From: a virus
IMG/VR virus record: IMGVR_UViG_3300020041_000031
Span: 1-6,103 of that record
Length of the DNA: 6,103 bases
Direction: 5' to 3' (one strand)
The notes under the pieces were generated by a model. It did no database searches, was not told the origin of the DNA, and saw only the letters and a list, made by a program, of their open reading frames with translations. The position numbers and the translations under genes were made by a program. Positions 1 to 6,103 of the stretch are shown here, piece by piece (the first letter of the stretch is position 1; the number at the start of each line of letters is the position of its first letter).

Positions 1-121
1 GAACTTACTACTGTTCGTCCTCAACTCAGGATGGTAAAGCTGGAGCGGCACCCAGAAGCGATGAAGTCGAATAGTGTAGGGGTTGAATGTCGGAACAGCG
101 AGGGGATTGCTGCGAATGTCA
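1..121. repeat. Terminal redundancy, copy 1 (identical to 5983..6103)
   Basis: Base-by-base comparison shows 121/121 identity with the last 121 nt of the window. The repeat lies inside the capsid gene, so it is a circularisation overlap and not a biological repeat. Confidence 0.97.
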
Positions 122-279: not shown

Positions 280-1350
280 TTAAATAATTAGTTGAAGTTT
301 GTAGTGATCTTGCCAGAATCGAATAACATCCGGGCAGAGCCAAGTAGGGGGATCAAAATCGGGCATCTTGCGAGAAGACGCGGCGAAACGCATCATTTGC
401 TTTTGCTCCCACGTATACGACGCTCTACGGGATACGGAGGGATGGAGATTGAACCGCTCAATACACAAAGACACAACACGCTTAACCAGAGAAGACTTGC
501 TAAAGCGTGCATAGGAATCAGCAGAAATGATCGAACGAGATACCTCGTCTTCCGGTTTGAGGTATCTATGATAGTAGCGAGGAATCGAGTAGTTATAATT
601 GATACGCTTCTCAAAATCGTAATAAGACCACGACGAAACACGAACAGAAGAGCGAGGCATATAACCAAGGAAATTACCAACGCCAGCAGATACGAATTTT
701 CGCGTATAACGGCGATGTTGGAGGACGATAGATAAAGGTGTAATCTTTCCATTTAAAACGATATTTTGATTGGATATTTCTGCAGGATCAAATTGAATTT
801 GTTTTGTAATGTATTTGACGACGTATCGCGCACGCTGATGCGTGCCTTTCGCAAGCCAAACAAAACCAAGGTCACGGACAGCTGACCGAATCTCGTTGTA
901 CAAACAATCGGTTCCGAAGAGAAAGCCGTGAAAGTGAAGGCGCGGCGCCGATCCTGTTTCTGGATGGGTGCCAAACTCCTGGAAAAACGCATGTTTAAAG
1001 GAGTGGCCGATCTTATGGCGCACTCGCTCATTCCATCGTCTAATAAACGCAGAAGGATTTCGCAGTGCTTCATCGTAATATTTAGGTGCTATGGTTATCG
1101 TAATAAAAATAGCCTGTCGAGACTCAGCCTTACAGCGGGCAAGCTCGCGCTCTATACGCACGAACCAGTCATTGCGTTGACGGCGCAAGCAATCCTCGCA
1201 CTTTCCGCACGGAACCATCAACCATTGGCGCGCGATATCCCAGGGACGGAGAGCAAGGGCAGATTTGGCTACATCCGAGCCGTCACGACAAGGGTTCTTT
1301 TTGTCGAAATAACGGCGGTTGCGTATCCATATGGGCGACAAACAGGGCAT
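280..1350 (-). CDS. VP4: Replication initiation protein (VP4 / phiX gpA-like HUH endonuclease), 356 aa
   Basis: Motif I-like FITITI. The HUH motif HFH is encoded at 936..928 (cac ttt cac). The two-tyrosine motif YVVKYITK is encoded at 825..802 (compare phiX gpA YVAKYVNK). The Cys cluster PCGKCEDCLRRQRNDWFVR is typical of microvirus Rep. I chose the ATG at 1350..1348 (MPCLSPIWIRN...) because the track start at 1371 is a TTG. Confidence 0.93.
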   Translation of the reverse strand: MPCLSPIWIRNRRYFDKKNPCRDGSDVAKSALALRPWDIARQWLMVPCGKCEDCLRRQRNDWFVRIERELARCKAESRQAIFITITIAPKYYDEALRNPSAFIRRWNERVRHKIGHSFKHAFFQEFGTHPETGSAPRLHFHGFLFGTDCLYNEIRSAVRDLGFVWLAKGTHQRARYVVKYITKQIQFDPAEISNQNIVLNGKITPLSIVLQHRRYTRKFVSAGVGNFLGYMPRSSVRVSSWSYYDFEKRINYNYSIPRYYHRYLKPEDEVSRSIISADSYARFSKSSLVKRVVSLCIERFNLHPSVSRRASYTWEQKQMMRFAASSRKMPDFDPPTWLCPDVIRFWQDHYKLQLII

Positions 1351-1777: not shown

Positions 1778-1852
1778 CTAAAGAACTCTTCCACCAAGAG
1801 GGCGGACAATAACTTTAGTCCCTTTTCCTTTCTTCTTCCGTCGAGCTTTCAT
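1778..1852 (-). CDS. Candidate 24-aa highly basic peptide MKARRKKKGKGTKVIVRPLGGRVL (J/VP8-like DNA-binding peptide), or the C-terminus of the 60-aa overprinted ORF 1778..1960
   Basis: ATG at 1852..1850 and TAG at 1780..1778. There are 9 K/R in 24 aa. It overlaps the last 38 nt of the 107-aa ORF in another frame and ends just before the terminator hairpin. It may be a frame artefact of the purine-rich run gaagaagaaaggaaaaggg. Confidence 0.3.
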   Translation of the reverse strand: MKARRKKKGKGTKVIVRPLGGRVL

Positions 1853-2550: not shown

Positions 2551-3816
2551 TCAATTTCTCTCAAAATAACTGCGACGCACATACGTGGCACCCATCCTGT
2601 CGCCCGAAGGGCCATAAATCTCACGCGTCTCATCGTAACTATTGGGTGTAGCGGCACCCTTAGTAAGGGCCATACCGCTAATAGCCAGAGCGCCGGCAAG
2701 GGCAGTACGAGCCATCGAATATCCAAAAGCATTCTTCTCGGAACGGTTAGAAAACCATTGGGCGGAAAGACCCTGCGACGCGTTGGCGGCATTCATAGCA
2801 ATTAGATGTTCGTGTATCTGACGGCCAGTCATTTTAACAGTCTTACCAGTAGGCTTGCCTGACTCAGTAACCTGCGGAACTTCGATTTCAGCCTCCCAGT
2901 TGAGGCGAAACCACTCGCGAAGATCAGACAACCGAACTTTAGCTATATTAAACTCAGCGTTCGCGAGGTCACCTGTAGCAGCAGAACTGTAGGCGGCAGC
3001 ATAATCGCGAGCAATCTGTGCAGCATAAATCTGATCGAAATACTTTGAATTAAACTCTTTGATCTGAACAGCCTCCTCAACATGCTTAGCATACTGTGCA
3101 ACAAAATCTTGAAATTTGTAAGTAGCCATTAAATCCGCGTACTCAGCGTCGGCCATATGAATGTCAGCAAGAGCGCGATTAAGATCGGCAAGAGCAGCAG
3201 CATTATTGACGTTGTGCGTACGAATCTGCTTATCCAGCTCATCGATATCCTTACGCCATTGAACAGTATGGGTATTTCCACGAAGCATATCGGCCTCGGC
3301 ATTGTCACGATTAGAAGCAGCATCATTGCGATCGACCGTGGATCGAGCGACCATATTCTGCGCAATAGCGGCAGGGTCGCCAGGAGAAAAAGCGCCAGGA
3401 GCAACGGGCGAGCCACCCGAAGGGCCGGAGGCAGAAGGCATGGATGCAGAACCGCCCGACATGGTGGCATTCACACCGACACCCGAGGAGCCAAGGACGG
3501 CGGCGGGCGTTACGCCAGCTTTCAAGTAACGATCGAAAACCTTCGAAGGGTCGTTATAAGCATTCTCGTAATCGAATTGTTTCTGCCAGTTAGCATAGGA
3601 AAGTTCAGACTGCTTCTGCATTTGCTCGAGAGCATACTGTTGCTGAAGCTTCATCTGTTTTTGCTGAAATCGCCACTGGCGGCGGGCGTTCATGCCGCCA
3701 AAAAGCTGTCCTAAAAAACCATTAATCAAACCAGTAGTGCCGGTAGAGGCGGCAGATTGACCAAGAGCTTGACCAAAAGAGGCAGCAGCACCGGCAGCAG
3801 CAATAGGAGCAGGCAT
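2551..3816 (-). CDS. VP2: Minor capsid / DNA pilot protein (VP2 / phiX H-like), 421 aa
   Basis: Gly/Ala-rich hydrophobic N-terminus (MPAPIAAAGAAASFGQALGQ...GLINGFLGQLFGG). Gln-rich helical segment (RRQWRFQQKQMKLQQQYALEQMQKQ). NWQKQFDYENAYNDPSKVFDRYLKAGVTPAAVLG resembles the conserved microvirus VP2 core (...aGlNP..l). A Gly/Ser/Pro low-complexity linker is encoded at about 3376..3495. The position is typical for VP2. Confidence 0.85.
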   Translation of the reverse strand: MPAPIAAAGAAASFGQALGQSAASTGTTGLINGFLGQLFGGMNARRQWRFQQKQMKLQQQYALEQMQKQSELSYANWQKQFDYENAYNDPSKVFDRYLKAGVTPAAVLGSSGVGVNATMSGGSASMPSASGPSGGSPVAPGAFSPGDPAAIAQNMVARSTVDRNDAASNRDNAEADMLRGNTHTVQWRKDIDELDKQIRTHNVNNAAALADLNRALADIHMADAEYADLMATYKFQDFVAQYAKHVEEAVQIKEFNSKYFDQIYAAQIARDYAAAYSSAATGDLANAEFNIAKVRLSDLREWFRLNWEAEIEVPQVTESGKPTGKTVKMTGRQIHEHLIAMNAANASQGLSAQWFSNRSEKNAFGYSMARTALAGALAISGMALTKGAATPNSYDETREIYGPSGDRMGATYVRRSYFERN

Positions 3817-3817
3817 A

Positions 3818-4009
3818 CTAAATACGGGTTAAATTGTTAGAACGGATAATATAATCGACGCGCACAGTATCGATGTGAACGCCACTGCGCTGCATCTTAG
3901 CCTGAGCAGCACACGACGACAAGAAAAAGGCAGCCAAAGCGGCGACAATGGAGGAAACAAGTGTCCAAAAAGCCTTCGACTTGTAAAAAGGAGCCTTAGT
4001 GTCTGACAT
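3818..4009 (-). CDS. Small predicted lipoprotein / membrane-anchored protein, 63 aa
   Basis: ATG at 4009..4007. Basic n-region (K5, K10, K12), hydrophobic core AFWTLVSSIVAALAAFF, and the lipobox-like L30-S31-S32-C33, leaving a 31-aa mature part. The TAG at 3820..3818 lies 1 nt before the VP2 ATG, so the two are tightly coupled. Confidence 0.65.
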   Translation of the reverse strand: MSDTKAPFYKSKAFWTLVSSIVAALAAFFLSSCAAQAKMQRSGVHIDTVRVDYIIRSNNLTRI

Positions 4010-4018: not shown

Positions 4019-4035
4019 AAATTAAAGAACGATAG

Positions 4036-4113
4036 AAAAATGCGCGACCTCTCCTGCAGTCGTTACCAATAACCTTCAGCGATTCACGAACTCTCGCAGA
4101 AGGGGTTCGCGCA
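4036..4113 (-). terminator. Long imperfect stem-loop followed by a T-run on the minus strand (candidate leaky terminator or structural element)
   Basis: 4041..4047 tgcgcga pairs with 4107..4113 tcgcgca. After a 1-nt bulge, 4048..4052 pairs with 4101..4105 (one G-T pair), and 4054..4057 pairs with 4096..4099. On the minus strand the stem base is followed by TTTTTCT (4040..4034). It lies in the 134-nt spacer after the 98-aa ORF. Confidence 0.35.
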
Positions 4114-4143
4114 CGTAGCATATATCGTCAAGTAAAGAGTGTA

Positions 4144-4452: not shown

Positions 4453-6103
4453 TTAACGATTAGACAAACGAGTTGCAAAGGTTTTATTAATCAGATTCTT
4501 CTTCTGTACCGCGTAGGACATATTTACAAAGAAATTATCCTCAACTTTGGATGAAAAAGGAGAGTTAACTTGCGACATATCGGTAAAAAGTATCGGGTAG
4601 TAGTGAGACGTAGGCAGACTACCCGAGCCATCGGAGAGTTTAGCGGAGCGCTGTTGTACCCAATAAGAGTAAAGAGGAATATAAGATGAGCCTGCAACCT
4701 CCGGCAAAGGATAAGCCTGAAGTTGTCCAAGAACCTCGTCATAGGATGCTCGAAACTCATTAAAACACGGTTCGGAAGCGGATGTAGCACCCGCATTTCC
4801 GTTGAAAACTATACGAGCCGAAGGAACGTCCTGATAGCCAATGTCATTATAAATAGGGTTGAAATAGTCGGGACCCAAGTAGTTGAGATAGTCCGGCTTA
4901 ACGAAACTCCAGTAATAAACAGGTCGAATACTCAACATGTCAATCAGATAGCCAGGTTCGCGGAAGTAGTAAGACTGTCGGCGACCGAGGCGATCGTTAA
5001 AGGCAATAGCACCACCCTGCTGACCGAGAGGGCCATTGACTGACGGACCGGAAAAATTATTCTGGCCAGCTTGATTCATAACAATCTGCACATTAACAGT
5101 CTGCGAGGCGCTAAACAAGAGCTTGGGGCGATCGACATGTTCGATCCTTGAAGCAAAGAACGTCTCGAGCCAATCCGAATAACGATTGCCGCCAGCGCCG
5201 AGAAGGTCTTTATACTCCTGAAGCCGCGAAGCAATGGCCAACTGGGGGATAGTGGTAACGCCAGACATCGAAACAGCGGAGGATGAACCAGTAGGGATGA
5301 GGCGACTAAATCGATCAGGATTCGAGGGAACGACTGCCATAGGATGAGCGACCAAAAAATAAGACAAGGCGGAGTTGGCAGTAGGTGTAGTATCCGCCAC
5401 AGTCTGAGATTTAATACCGGTAGATCCGAGCAAATTAGAACCCGGATAAGTGGTGCTAACGGGAAAACCGTCTCCAGTGCTACCCATGCTGTCTAAATCC
5501 GAATGAATAATCTGAAAGAAAAGATTACCACGGTTAAACGTATTATTGGAAGAGGGGACAGACGAGGGATAAAATTGACTCTCGAAAAATGCATCCAAAA
5601 ATTCAAGGTTTCCGTAACATTGTGTAAAAAACCTCGAGCCGGTCGGATTATCGGCATCAAGAGCAACCGAAGATTTAGAATAAAGAAGTCTATTCGCCAT
5701 AGGCCACGCGAAAGAATAGAGGCCCCACTGCGAATAACCGTAATAATTTCGAACGATATCCCAATAAGCTAAATAAGTATCGGCGTTAGACCATTGCGTA
5801 ATCGAAGCGTTCGACGGAAGCGCCACAGAGACCAAAGGAGTCCCACCTATATTACTTCTATTTCCAATGCGAAGCCAGGAAAAAAGGGAGTTTACATACG
5901 ATGCACCGAAACGATTAGAATTGAGTGCGCCGGTATCGGTCATAGTGGAACAAATCCAATTTGTGCTCAAGTCATTCATGTCGAACTTACTACTGTTCGT
6001 CCTCAACTCAGGATGGTAAAGCTGGAGCGGCACCCAGAAGCGATGAAGTCGAATAGTGTAGGGGTTGAATGTCGGAACAGCGAGGGGATTGCTGCGAATG
6101 TCA
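4453..6103 (-). CDS. VP1: Major capsid protein (VP1 / phiX F-like), main body; the frame is open to the window edge and the true start is at 276 after circularisation
   Basis: This is the longest ORF in the window. The M at 6033 in the track is a GTG codon inside an open frame (6031..6033 = cac). The frame stays open through 6103. The stop is TAA at 4455..4453. The non-redundant CDS is 276..1 + 5982..4453 = 1,806 nt = 601 aa, a size typical of non-phiX microvirus capsid proteins. Confidence 0.93.
   Translation of the reverse strand, partial: DIRSNPLAVPTFNPYTIRLHRFWVPLQLYHPELRTNSSKFDMNDLSTNWICSTMTDTGALNSNRFGASYVNSLFSWLRIGNRSNIGGTPLVSVALPSNASITQWSNADTYLAYWDIVRNYYGYSQWGLYSFAWPMANRLLYSKSSVALDADNPTGSRFFTQCYGNLEFLDAFFESQFYPSSVPSSNNTFNRGNLFFQIIHSDLDSMGSTGDGFPVSTTYPGSNLLGSTGIKSQTVADTTPTANSALSYFLVAHPMAVVPSNPDRFSRLIPTGSSSAVSMSGVTTIPQLAIASRLQEYKDLLGAGGNRYSDWLETFFASRIEHVDRPKLLFSASQTVNVQIVMNQAGQNNFSGPSVNGPLGQQGGAIAFNDRLGRRQSYYFREPGYLIDMLSIRPVYYWSFVKPDYLNYLGPDYFNPIYNDIGYQDVPSARIVFNGNAGATSASEPCFNEFRASYDEVLGQLQAYPLPEVAGSSYIPLYSYWVQQRSAKLSDGSGSLPTSHYYPILFTDMSQVNSPFSSKVEDNFFVNMSYAVQKKNLINKTFATRLSNR
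5983..6103. repeat. Terminal redundancy, copy 2 (identical to 1..121)
   Basis: Same as copy 1. The repeat runs to the last base of the window. Confidence 0.97.

What the first reader, a model, noticed from the sequence alone, without database searches (positions are those of the whole stretch)
3818..4009. Small lipoprotein-like gene fused tightly upstream of the pilot-protein gene: candidate lysis or superinfection-exclusion factor
The 63-aa ORF has a textbook basic n-region, a hydrophobic h-region and an L-S-S-C lipobox, with a 31-aa mature peptide lacking acidic residues right after the Cys. It stops 1 nt before the VP2 ATG. Outside phiX-like phages (protein E), microvirus lysis functions are mostly unassigned. 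Small phage lipoproteins elsewhere act as spanin components or receptor-blocking exclusion factors (for example T5 Llp and Cor). As far as I know, a lipoprotein in this slot of a microvirus genome is not part of the canonical gene set.
Basis: partly seen in the sequence, partly recalled or inferred. Interest (0 to 1): 0.7.

Follow-up and report, generated by a model that had tools for sequence, protein, structure and literature searches.

The report
Conserved small lipoprotein gene of gut microviruses
A real 63-codon gene for a small secreted lipoprotein is the best-conserved gene of a large group of gut microviruses that infect Bacteroidales, and it is a leading but untested candidate for how these enzyme-less phages break open or modify the host envelope.

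Summary
On the minus strand, 4009→3818 encodes a 63-aa protein with a basic n-region, a hydrophobic core, an L-S-S-C lipobox (Cys33) and a 31-aa mature peptide. Its TAG lies one base before the VP2 ATG.

It is a real gene. All 81 related genomes keep exactly 63 codons, dN/dS is about 0.06 with near-saturated synonymous sites, and it is the most conserved gene in the genome.

The wider family has about 60 clusters at 50% identity, seemingly all from microviruses. It is modular: signal peptides and mature domains recombine, but the [G/A/S]-Cys junction is almost invariant. This supports true lipoprotein processing.

Six prophages at dif-like sites, two of them in named Alistipes assemblies, point to Bacteroidales hosts.

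The function is inferred, not shown. I favour an envelope-directed lysis effector (about 0.4):
- it is a core gene;
- none of the 115 carrier loci has the M15 peptidase found in other Bacteroidota microviruses;
- it does not co-vary with the capsid, which argues against receptor masking.

A strong rival surfaced: a conserved two-helix membrane protein overprinted inside VP4.

Nothing in the searched literature describes the family; GenBank calls it "hypothetical".

The parts
3818..4009 (-). orf63: precursor of a small lipoprotein (63 aa plus TAG stop).
   Evidence: for the sequence. It is intact in 81/81 relatives, has dN/dS of about 0.06, and is the most conserved gene in the genome (median 88.5% aa identity).
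3914..4009 (-). Signal peptide, codons 1-32: n-region MSDTKAPFYKSK, h-region AFWTLVSSIVAALAAFF, lipobox L-S-S before Cys33.
   Evidence: It meets the PROSITE and G+LPP rules. pN/pS is 0.09, as constrained as the mature part. The motif KSK[KA]FWTLVxxIVAALxAFF is shared across family types even though synonymous sites are saturated (pS 0.72-0.81).
3911..3913 (-). Cys33 codon (TGT): the predicted lipidation and SPase II cleavage site.
   Evidence: It is invariant in alignments A1 and A2. [GAS]-C is present in 60 of the 62 sequences checked.
3821..3913 (-). Mature 31-aa lipopeptide CAAQAKMQRSGVHIDTVRVDYIIRSNNLTRI ('type 1' domain, core G-V-H-x-D-T-V-R-V-D-Y).
   Evidence: The core, codons 41-59, has pN/pS 0.05. 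G42, H44 and D46 are invariant across the long and short forms. There are no acidic residues at +2 to +6. The AlphaFold model is uninformative here (pLDDT 57-68).
3814..3820 (-). TAG-T-ATG junction with VP2, implying translational coupling.
   Evidence: The sequence is. The same TAG/TAA/TGA-N-ATG junction is present in all 81 relatives.
2551..3816 (-). VP2 (DNA pilot protein), the downstream coupled gene.
   Evidence: It matches PHROG 8689, pilot protein, at E = 2.5e-8. It is highly variable among relatives (median 56% identity, minimum 40%).
4030..4114 (-). Conserved long hairpin (arms 4114-4097 and 4056-4040) followed by a T-run (4039-4030), just upstream of orf63. It is a candidate attenuator/terminator or a single-stranded DNA element.
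   Evidence: The 23-sequence alignment has 88% mean column identity, far above coding synonymous sites. RNAalifold gives -26.9 kcal/mol with 2 compensatory pairs. The inner part was flagged as terminator-like. There is no Rfam match.

Best explanation
orf63 is a genuine gene for a small exported lipoprotein.

Shown:
- The ORF is under strong amino-acid-level purifying selection.
- It carries a canonical lipoprotein signal, whose [G/A/S]-Cys junction is kept across a modular family.
- It is a core gene of gut microviruses. Six prophage copies sit at dif-like sites, two of them in named Alistipes (Bacteroidales) assemblies.
- No gene in the genome has a Shine-Dalgarno sequence, which fits a Bacteroidota host.

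Inferred pathway:
- The precursor is translated from the same mRNA as VP2, downstream of a conserved hairpin plus T-run that probably limits read-through from VP1/orf98.
- It is exported by Sec, lipidated at Cys33 and cleaved by signal peptidase II.
- The 31-aa lipopeptide lacks the acidic export signal that Bacteroidota use for surface display, so it should stay on the periplasmic side of a membrane.

Inferred function (most likely, about 0.4): it is the phage's envelope-directed lysis effector. This would be a lipoprotein-type single-gene lysis protein, doing the job that an M15 endolysin does in other Bacteroidota microviruses. It would work like the small bacteriolytic lipoproteins (colicin release proteins, entericidin B) or like the 'protein antibiotic' lysis proteins. 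The lipidated beta-prone peptide, and/or the unusually conserved and possibly persistent signal-peptide helix, would bind a conserved host envelope component. The wall or membranes would then fail at the end of infection.
For: Real gene:
- 81/81 relatives keep 63 codons.
- dN/dS is 0.06 in this frame only.
- It is the most conserved gene: 88.5% median aa identity, against VP1 66%, VP2 56% and VP4 81%.

Lipoprotein:
- It meets the PROSITE and G+LPP rules.
- [GAS]-C sits at a fixed offset in 60 of the 62 sequences checked, although both halves are swapped between family members. Signal peptide SP-A occurs with mature types 1-4, and mature type 1 also occurs with a different signal peptide.
- One nr entry is named 'lipoprotein'.

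Periplasm-facing: no D/E at +2 to +6 in 55/60.

Host:
- Prophages lie in Alistipes montrealensis and an Alistipes MAG. Four more IMG/VR contigs carry the same host flank (HTH gene, plus the HIT-family gene in two) and a dif-like site.
- No gene has an SD motif.

Core and essential-like:
- Every one of the top 25 GenBank VP1 relatives carries a family member in the same slot.
- It is present in at least three genome architectures whose VP1 is only 22-28% identical.
- It is kept in a genome with no dif-like site, so presumably a lytic phage.

No other lytic enzyme:
- There are no Pfam, PHROG or NCBIfam lysis hits in any window ORF.
- There is no M15 peptidase in the 115 carrier loci.
- phiHBP1 and three other peptidase-bearing microviruses lack any intergenic lipobox ORF.

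Conserved-target signature:
- The signal peptide (pN/pS 0.09) and the mature core (0.05) are both tightly constrained.
- The protein does not track capsid changes.
Against: - No experiment and no homology links the protein to any lysis protein. Pfam Lysis_col, PHROGs, NCBIfam and PDB are all negative.
- The complementary distribution with M15 peptidase is confounded by phylogeny and rests on only 4 peptidase-bearing genomes.
- A second conserved membrane protein exists: 119 aa, two hydrophobic helices, basic C-terminus, overprinted in VP4. It is at least as E-like.
- Known single-gene lysis proteins are usually fast-evolving and overprinted. They are not the most conserved gene, and none is reported to be a lipoprotein.
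- Colicin-release-type quasi-lysis does not breach peptidoglycan enough for 25-nm virions, so an additional mechanism would be needed.
- In prophages the gene is the first one after attL, a position typical of lysogenic-conversion or exclusion genes.
- There are weak PADLOC hits to a defence-candidate model, PDC-M02A (E = 0.003-0.03).
Confidence: 0.4

Rival explanations
1. Superinfection-exclusion or progeny-protection lipoprotein, working like T5 Llp, Cor or TP-J34 Ltp. The periplasm-facing lipopeptide would bind the phage receptor or the DNA-entry route and block adsorption or VP2-mediated DNA delivery by related microviruses.
For: - Size, lipobox and periplasmic orientation resemble Llp and Cor.
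- The gene is adjacent to and coupled with the pilot-protein gene.
- It is the first gene after attL in six prophages.
- Discrete alternative mature-domain types could correspond to different targets.
- There are weak PADLOC hits to a defence-candidate model.
Against: - Exclusion genes are normally accessory and patchy. This one is core, and the most conserved gene in a 6-kb genome.
- It does not co-vary with the presumed receptor-binding capsid. Type-1 genomes span 57-92% VP1 identity and 40-91% VP2 identity with a near-constant lipoprotein.
- L112 and L115 share a 100% identical lipoprotein but only 70% identical VP1.
- There is no homology to Llp, Cor or Ltp families.
Confidence: 0.2
2. Lysis is carried out by the VP4-overprinted membrane protein (752→393), which is E- or holin-like. 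orf63 would then be an accessory envelope factor. It might disrupt the outer membrane at the last step (what a spanin does), or tune burst size and timing like phiX174 K.
For: - The overprinted ORF is open in 78 of 79 relatives.
- VP4 synonymous diversity drops from 0.64 to 0.28 exactly over its span (p = 2e-21).
- It has two strongly hydrophobic segments and a basic C-terminus. Homologous or analogous +1-frame membrane ORFs are seen in VP4 of other architectures.
- Overprinted membrane proteins are the precedent for microvirus lysis (phiX174 E).
Against: - The overprinted ORF has no known homologue or motif.
- Its presence in type-B and type-C genomes was not tested for selection.
- A holin-like protein without an endolysin does not explain wall breakdown.
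- orf63 lacks the defining spanin context: no i-spanin, and no Pro-rich or Cys-bearing mature part.
Confidence: 0.2
3. orf63 is not processed as a lipoprotein. The N-terminal helix would be a permanent signal anchor, and the protein would act like phiX174 E or ssRNA-phage Sgl proteins, through helix-helix inhibition of a membrane enzyme of wall-precursor synthesis (the MraY or MurJ class). The Cys would be conserved for another reason.
For: - The hydrophobic segment is long (about 18 residues) and sequence-specifically conserved (pN/pS 0.09; the KKFWTLV...AALxAFF motif is shared across types). This is unlike ordinary signal peptides.
- AlphaFold gives a confident helix for residues 11-30.
- The Ala/Ser-rich composition resembles SAR-type helices (my own reading of the sequence).
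Against: - [GAS]-Cys is kept at a fixed offset in 60 of the 62 sequences checked, even where the whole signal peptide is replaced by an unrelated one (L083, P0145, P0153). This is what a cleavage and lipidation site predicts and a plain helix does not.
- The type-1 mature core is as constrained as the helix.
Confidence: 0.1
4. A morphogenetic or DNA-handling role. In this reading orf63 would be a membrane anchor for assembly or packaging, or a chaperone for VP2. The lead is the 'long forms', in which the same N-terminal module is in frame with a J-like basic tail.
For: - About 30 clusters are 170-223 aa with the orf63 module at the N-terminus and a conserved RRGGRRG..PLGGSHL tail.
- The long frame is kept open in 8/8 loci while it overlaps gene X.
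- orf63 is coupled to VP2 in the window type.
Against: - In the window type the basic tail is a separate 24-aa gene with its own ATG, about 1.9 kb away. In type-B loci a GTG immediately precedes the tail. The fusion may therefore not be functional.
- An exported lipoprotein and a cytoplasmic DNA-binding peptide are topologically incompatible.
Confidence: 0.08

Closest known systems
Colicin lysis / bacteriocin release proteins (Pfam PF02402) and entericidin B
   Same: They are very small lipoprotein precursors (about 45-52 aa, against 63 here) with a mature lipopeptide of about 28-35 aa (31 here). They are bacteriolytic when expressed. In the pCloDF13 release protein the cleaved signal peptide is stable and contributes to killing (my own knowledge). 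That parallels the unusually constrained signal peptide found here.
   Different: There is no sequence similarity: Pfam gives no hit even at E = 0.1. Those proteins are plasmid or chromosomal genes of Enterobacteria and act through outer-membrane phospholipase A. They cause quasi-lysis, not virion release. The host here is Bacteroidales.
phiX174 protein E and ssRNA-phage single-gene lysis proteins (LysM, Sgl-PP7, MS2 L)
   Same: Each is a single small membrane-targeted protein in a tiny phage genome that lacks a muralytic enzyme. The functional part is a conserved hydrophobic helix. In sister genomes the long form of this family overprints another gene, as E overprints D.
   Different: orf63 has its own coding space and a lipobox, and it is the most conserved gene rather than a fast-evolving one. 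No lipoprotein Sgl is mentioned in the Sgl papers checked. No target is known.
T5 Llp and the Cor family (phage-encoded exclusion lipoproteins); TP-J34 Ltp
   Same: They are small phage lipoproteins that face the periplasm or the outer face of the membrane, and they can be carried by lytic or temperate phages.
   Different: There is no homology. The mature part here is half the size of Llp's. The gene is core rather than accessory, and it does not co-vary with capsid or pilot proteins.
Lambda Rz1 o-spanin / T1 gp11 u-spanin
   Same: They are small outer-membrane lipoproteins encoded by a phage, and overlapping-gene arrangements occur in the family.
   Different: There is no i-spanin, holin or endolysin. 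The mature peptide has no Pro-rich region and no Cys for intermolecular disulfides. The C-terminal hydrophobic stretch of the long forms is only about 11-15 residues, too short for the membrane anchor of a u-spanin.

Membership tests
Bacterial lipoprotein precursors (PROSITE PS51257 / SPase II substrates) | Positively charged n-region (K/R within the first 7 residues) | tested here: met
   K5, K10 and K12 are present; the n-region has net charge +2.
Bacterial lipoprotein precursors (PROSITE PS51257 / SPase II substrates) | Uncharged h-region followed by lipobox [LVI..][ASTVI][GAS]-C, with Cys between residues 15 and 35 | tested here: met
   AALAAFFLSSC matches the pattern and Cys is at position 33. 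[GAS]-C is conserved in 60 of the 62 sequences checked.
Bacterial lipoprotein precursors (PROSITE PS51257 / SPase II substrates) | Actual diacylglyceryl modification and cleavage by LspA | not testable with these tools
   This needs labelling, mass spectrometry or globomycin. SignalP and LipoP were also unavailable.
Bacteroidota surface-exposed lipoproteins | Acidic lipoprotein export signal just after the +1 Cys | tested here: not met
   The sequence after the Cys is CAAQAKMQR. There is no D/E at +2 to +6 in 55/60 family members. The motif definition comes from my own knowledge.
Colicin lysis proteins (Pfam PF02402 Lysis_col) | Match to the family profile | tested here: not met
   The Pfam scan of orf63 at E <= 0.1 returned 0 families.
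Colicin lysis proteins (Pfam PF02402 Lysis_col) | Small lipoprotein with a mature peptide of about 30 aa | tested here: met
   The precursor is 63 aa and the mature peptide 31 aa.
Two-component spanins (o-spanin, Rz1-like) | Partner i-spanin gene (N-terminal membrane anchor plus periplasmic coiled coil) embedded in, overlapping or adjacent to the gene, within a holin-endolysin cassette | tested here: not met
   No holin, endolysin or Rz-like gene appears in any library. The adjacent gene is the pilot protein VP2. There is no M15 peptidase in the 115 carrier loci.
Two-component spanins (o-spanin, Rz1-like) | Pro-rich mature lipoprotein with periplasmic Cys for disulfide-linked dimers | tested here: not met
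   The mature peptide has no Pro and no Cys other than the lipidated one.
Llp/Cor-type exclusion lipoproteins | Sequence or profile similarity to known members | tested here: not met
   No PHROG or Pfam exclusion family matched. The only PHROG hit is to an unknown-function family at E = 0.04.
Llp/Cor-type exclusion lipoproteins | Specificity linked to the phage's own receptor-binding protein | tested here: not met
   The lipoprotein is constant while VP1 and VP2 diverge. L112 and L115 have identical lipoproteins but 70% identical VP1. This assumes that VP1 determines the receptor.
Llp/Cor-type exclusion lipoproteins | Blocks adsorption or DNA entry when expressed | not testable with these tools
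   This needs an infection assay.
phiX174 E-like single-gene lysis proteins | Small protein with a conserved N-terminal membrane helix that is sufficient for lysis | tested here: inconclusive
   A conserved helix is present. Lysis activity was not tested, and there is no sequence similarity to E.
phiX174 E-like single-gene lysis proteins | Gene overprinted within another gene | tested here: not met
   orf63 occupies its own space between the hairpin and VP2, and the alternative frames are not conserved. Only the long forms in other genomes overprint gene X.

The most novel reading that the evidence does not exclude
A lipoprotein-type single-gene lysis system. The conserved signal-peptide helix plus lipobox junction would itself be the effector, or half of it. 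It could jam or hijack the host lipoprotein-maturation or envelope-assembly machinery, or trigger autolysis. The short lipidated hairpin would supply target specificity.

If true, this would be the first lysis mechanism defined for microviruses outside the phiX174 group, the first 'protein antibiotic' aimed at Bacteroidales, and the first that needs lipidation.
Probability: 0.25. Interest if true: 0.85.

Novelty: new variant of a known kind. Interest (0 to 1): 0.62.

Why it matters
How microviruses other than phiX174 lyse their hosts is a long-standing gap. Roux 2012 states that phiX174 is the only case solved, and only some lineages carry an M15 peptidase.

This family gives a concrete, testable candidate for a very abundant group of human and animal gut phages that infect Bacteroidales. 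It is a tiny, synthesisable gene with clear mutational handles: Cys33, the G-H-D core and the KKFWTL helix.

If it kills cells, its target would be a new vulnerable point in the Bacteroidales envelope. If it excludes phages instead, it would be the first exclusion system described in microviruses.

The side finding of a conserved membrane protein overprinted in VP4 means both candidates should be tested together.

Tried and rejected
- Not a gene / chance ORF: rejected.
- A 100-aa version with an N-terminal extension (MLRARTP...), as called in about a third of database entries: rejected. The extension is out of frame in the window and closed by a stop in 37 of 82 genomes. The block is conserved at the nucleotide level as a hairpin, not as codons.
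- Other overprinted ORFs with hydrophobic stretches, in orf106, VP2 and VP1: broken by stops in most relatives.
- Spanin: rejected because partner and cassette are absent, and the C-terminal hydrophobic stretch of the long forms is too short.
- Structure route: the AlphaFold2 model is a single helix with low confidence in the mature part, so no fold search was run.
- PDB sequence search, Pfam, NCBIfam and PHROGs: no informative hit.
- PADLOC gave only weak hits to PDC-M02A (E = 0.003-0.03). These could be signal-peptide composition, and no paper on that candidate was found.
- Rfam on the whole window: nothing.
- Prophage attL/attR direct repeats: none of 10 nt or more in the three prophages whose right flank was examined (L082, L084, L089). 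The right flanks of L082 and L083 differ.
- dif-like site in the window: none.
- Literature: no paper in the library links microviruses with a lipoprotein or a lipoprotein Sgl.

Full report
**Context.** The window is a complete microvirus genome with a 121-nt terminal repeat, so the circle is about 5,982 nt. All genes lie on the minus strand:
- VP1 (6033→4453)
- orf98 (4440→4144)
- a non-coding block
- orf63 (4009→3818)
- VP2 (3816→2551)
- orf106, orf107 and orf86
- VP4 (1371→280)

VP1, VP2 and VP4 are identified by Pfam and PHROG matches. No gene has a Shine-Dalgarno motif, and the regions upstream of the starts are A/T-rich.

**Observation.**
- The n-region is MSDTKAPFYKSK.
- The h-region is AFWTLVSSIVAALAAFF.
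- The lipobox is L-S-S-C, with Cys33.
- The mature peptide is 31 aa, with no acidic residue at +2 to +6.
- The TAG stop is followed by one base and then the VP2 ATG.
- The PROSITE PS51257 rule and the G+LPP pattern both match.

**Is it a gene?** Yes.
- A database search found 405 homologues.
- 80 IMG/VR genomes and the closest GenBank genome all carry an intact 63-codon ORF with the same stop-N-ATG junction.
- Relative to the window, orf63 has the highest median identity of all genes: 88.5%, against VP4 81%, VP1 66% and VP2 56%.
- Pairwise Nei-Gojobori estimates give pN 0.08 and pS 0.63, so dN/dS is about 0.06. Of the other five frames, four give ratios above 1; the antisense frame whose codons are in register with orf63 gives 0.14.
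- The 100-aa versions in databases fuse the upstream block by chance of frame. In the window it is out of frame, and the frame is closed in 37 of 82 genomes.

**How wide is the family, and what is constant?** A profile search of 1.8 billion representatives found 64 clusters at 50% identity. At least one of them (P0177) is a repetitive, spurious match.

The family is modular.
- The signal peptide 'SP-A' (KSK[KA]FWTLVxxIVAALxAFF) precedes at least four unrelated kinds of about 30-aa mature peptide:
  - type 1, GVHIDTVRVDY;
  - type 2, TTRHYVVQS...TITYEQ;
  - at least two further kinds.
- The type-1 mature peptide also occurs behind a different signal peptide (L083, P0145, P0153).
- Through all these swaps the junction stays [G/A/S]-Cys at a fixed offset. 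This holds in 60 of the 62 cluster representatives and added loci that carry the FW motif. I take this as the strongest in-silico evidence for real SPase II processing.

The signal peptide itself is unusually constrained.
- Within the window clade its pN/pS is 0.09.
- SP-A is conserved between type-1 and type-2 genes even though synonymous sites are saturated (pS 0.72-0.81).
- So the helix is likely to have a sequence-specific role, not merely a targeting role.

**Distribution and host.**
- Every one of the top 25 GenBank VP1 relatives has a type-1 or type-2 member immediately upstream of VP2. They are annotated 'hypothetical protein' or not at all.
- The module also occurs in two other genome architectures whose VP1 is only 22-28% identical to the reference capsids.
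- Six copies lie in prophages in the same chromosomal neighbourhood.
  - In five the gene lies about 80-130 nt downstream of a dif-like site (GAATTAATATnnnnATTATGTTAAAT, or its reverse complement in L089), as the first phage gene.
  - In L110 about 380 nt intervene.
  - Two are in named Alistipes assemblies.
- The window has no dif-like site, so it is probably a lytic relative.
- The first cultured Bacteroidota microvirus, phiHBP1, has an M15A peptidase and no family member.

**Function.** Nothing was tested, so this section is inference.

For a lysis role:
- The gene is core and essential-looking in a 6-kb genome.
- No muralytic enzyme is detectable in the window or in the 115 carrier loci.
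- Four peptidase-bearing Bacteroidota microviruses lack any intergenic lipobox ORF.
- The tight conservation of both halves suggests a conserved host target.
- Small bacteriolytic lipoproteins exist as a precedent: colicin release proteins, whose stable signal peptide contributes to killing, and entericidin B (my own knowledge).

Against receptor-masking exclusion:
- The lipoprotein stays constant while VP1 and VP2 diverge to 57% and 40% identity.
- L112 and L115 have identical lipoproteins and 97-99% identical backbones, but VP1 only 70% identical.

Against lysis:
- There is no homology to any lysis protein.
- The complementary distribution is phylogenetically confounded.
- The position next to attL is typical of conversion genes.
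- A second candidate exists (next section).

**Rival candidate found in passing.** A 119-aa ORF (752→393) lies in the +1 frame of VP4.
- It is open in 78 of 79 relatives.
- Synonymous diversity in VP4 falls from 0.64 to 0.28 exactly across its span (p = 2e-21).
- It has two strongly hydrophobic segments and a basic C-terminus.
- It has no known homologues.

It resembles phiX174's overprinted membrane proteins and could be the lysis protein, or a partner of orf63.

**Long forms.**
- About 30 clusters encode 170-223-aa proteins in three parts:
  - the orf63 module at the N-terminus;
  - about 100 poorly conserved Ser/Thr/Pro/Leu-rich residues;
  - a conserved basic tail, RRGGRRG..PLGGSHL.
- In 8/8 such loci the long frame and an overlapping gene X are both free of stops, while the third frame has 4-7 stops.
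- The tail looks like phiX/G4 protein J.
- In the window type it is a separate 24-aa gene with its own ATG (1852→1778, MKARRKKKGKGTKVIVRPLGGRVL). The ATG is conserved in 63 genomes, and a strong terminator-like hairpin follows the gene.
- In type-B loci a GTG precedes the tail.
- I therefore treat the fusion as unresolved, not as evidence of function.

**Expression context.**
- A very conserved hairpin (4114→4040) followed by a T-run lies just upstream of orf63. The alignment has 88% mean column identity, and the consensus fold has two compensatory pairs.
- It has no Rfam match.
- It may attenuate transcription from VP1/orf98 into orf63-VP2, which would suit a low-dose late effector. This is inference.

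**Verdict.**
- The lipoprotein reading is well supported, at about 0.85.
- The lysis reading is the best single hypothesis, at about 0.4.
- Exclusion stands at about 0.2.
- 'The VP4-overprinted protein is the lysis factor and orf63 is accessory' stands at about 0.2.
- The family is unstudied but widespread. It is a new variant of the known kind 'small phage lipoprotein', in an unexpected virus family and with an unusually constrained signal peptide.

Noticed in passing
window 393-752 (minus strand), inside VP4 (280-1371): A conserved overprinted gene in the +1 frame of VP4: 119 aa, two strongly hydrophobic segments and a basic C-terminus. It is open in 78 of 79 relatives, and VP4 synonymous diversity halves exactly over its span (0.28 against 0.64, p = 2e-21). 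It has no known homologue and is a rival lysis candidate.
   Followed up: partly
window 1778-1852 (minus strand); hairpin 1742-1768: A 24-aa basic ORF, MKARRKKKGKGTKVIVRPLGGRVL, overlapping the end of orf107. Its own ATG is conserved in 63 related genomes. It resembles the J DNA-binding protein of phiX/G4 in size and composition. A strong terminator-like hairpin (CCCCCAGGAGG...CCTTCTGGGGG plus T-run) follows it, as terminator TJ follows gene J in phiX174.
   Followed up: partly
window 4030-4114 (minus strand): A highly conserved non-coding hairpin plus T-run between orf98 and orf63 (88% mean column identity, two compensatory pairs, no Rfam family). A minority of relatives carry a different upstream block (CACCGTAGCTTCCCC...). 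It is miscalled as an N-terminal extension of orf63 (the 100-aa entries) in databases.
   Followed up: partly
L082 7977-8585; L084 2432-3025; L085, L086, L087, L089, L090, L111: 'Long forms': the orf63 module heads a ~190-200-aa ORF that overlaps another gene (X, motif EQELFDGPEWPIGRV) in a second frame and ends in the J-like basic tail. Both frames have 0 stops and the third has 4-7. A GTG directly precedes the tail in the three loci checked (L082, L084, L111). Whether the fusion protein is made is unknown.
   Followed up: partly
L082 ~7880-7905, L084 ~2335-2360, L088 ~475-500, L110 ~3675-3700, L089 (reverse complement), L083 ~7800-7830: Six microvirus prophages of three different gene orders sit beside a dif-like site (GAATTAATATnnnnATTATGTTAAAT) in the same chromosomal neighbourhood. 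In five of them the site lies downstream of the same host HTH gene; in L083 another host gene intervenes. The lipoprotein gene lies about 80-130 nt downstream of the dif-like site in five of them and about 380 nt in L110, and a second XerD-arm-like motif (ATTATGTTCAATG) overlaps its start codon in three (L082, L084, L088). L082 and L083 are named Alistipes assemblies. The window has no such site.
   Followed up: partly
L112 vs L115 (GenBank PQ007377, PQ006896): Two genomes with 97-99% identical VP2, VP4 and orf98 and an identical lipoprotein have VP1 only 70% identical. L115's VP1 is closer (75%) to that of a type-1 genome. This suggests capsid-gene exchange or hypervariation independent of the backbone.
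   Followed up: no
window 1-121 and 5983-6103: A 121-nt terminal direct repeat, i.e. assembly overlap of a circular genome of about 5,982 nt. The VP1 ORF probably starts upstream of the listed GTG at 6033; relatives annotate a VP1 of about 600 aa.
   Followed up: no
window, upstream of all gene starts: No Shine-Dalgarno motif precedes any gene, and the leaders are A/T-rich. This matches Bacteroidota-style translation initiation and agrees with the Alistipes prophage evidence.
   Followed up: partly
orf63 residues 23-63 and P0126 residues 27-62: Weak matches (E = 0.003-0.03) of two family members to the N-terminus of PADLOC defence-candidate model PDC-M02A. They could be signal-peptide composition or a distant link to a defence-island protein. 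No literature was found.
   Followed up: no
L082 8874-9209, L084 3329-3646, L089/L090 ~2340-2686, L111 1118-1306: Type-B genomes also have a +1-frame ORF inside VP4 with hydrophobic segments and a shared motif (LFIGGRFVIFG). It sits at a different place in VP4 from the window-type overprinted ORF. Selection on it was not tested.
   Followed up: no
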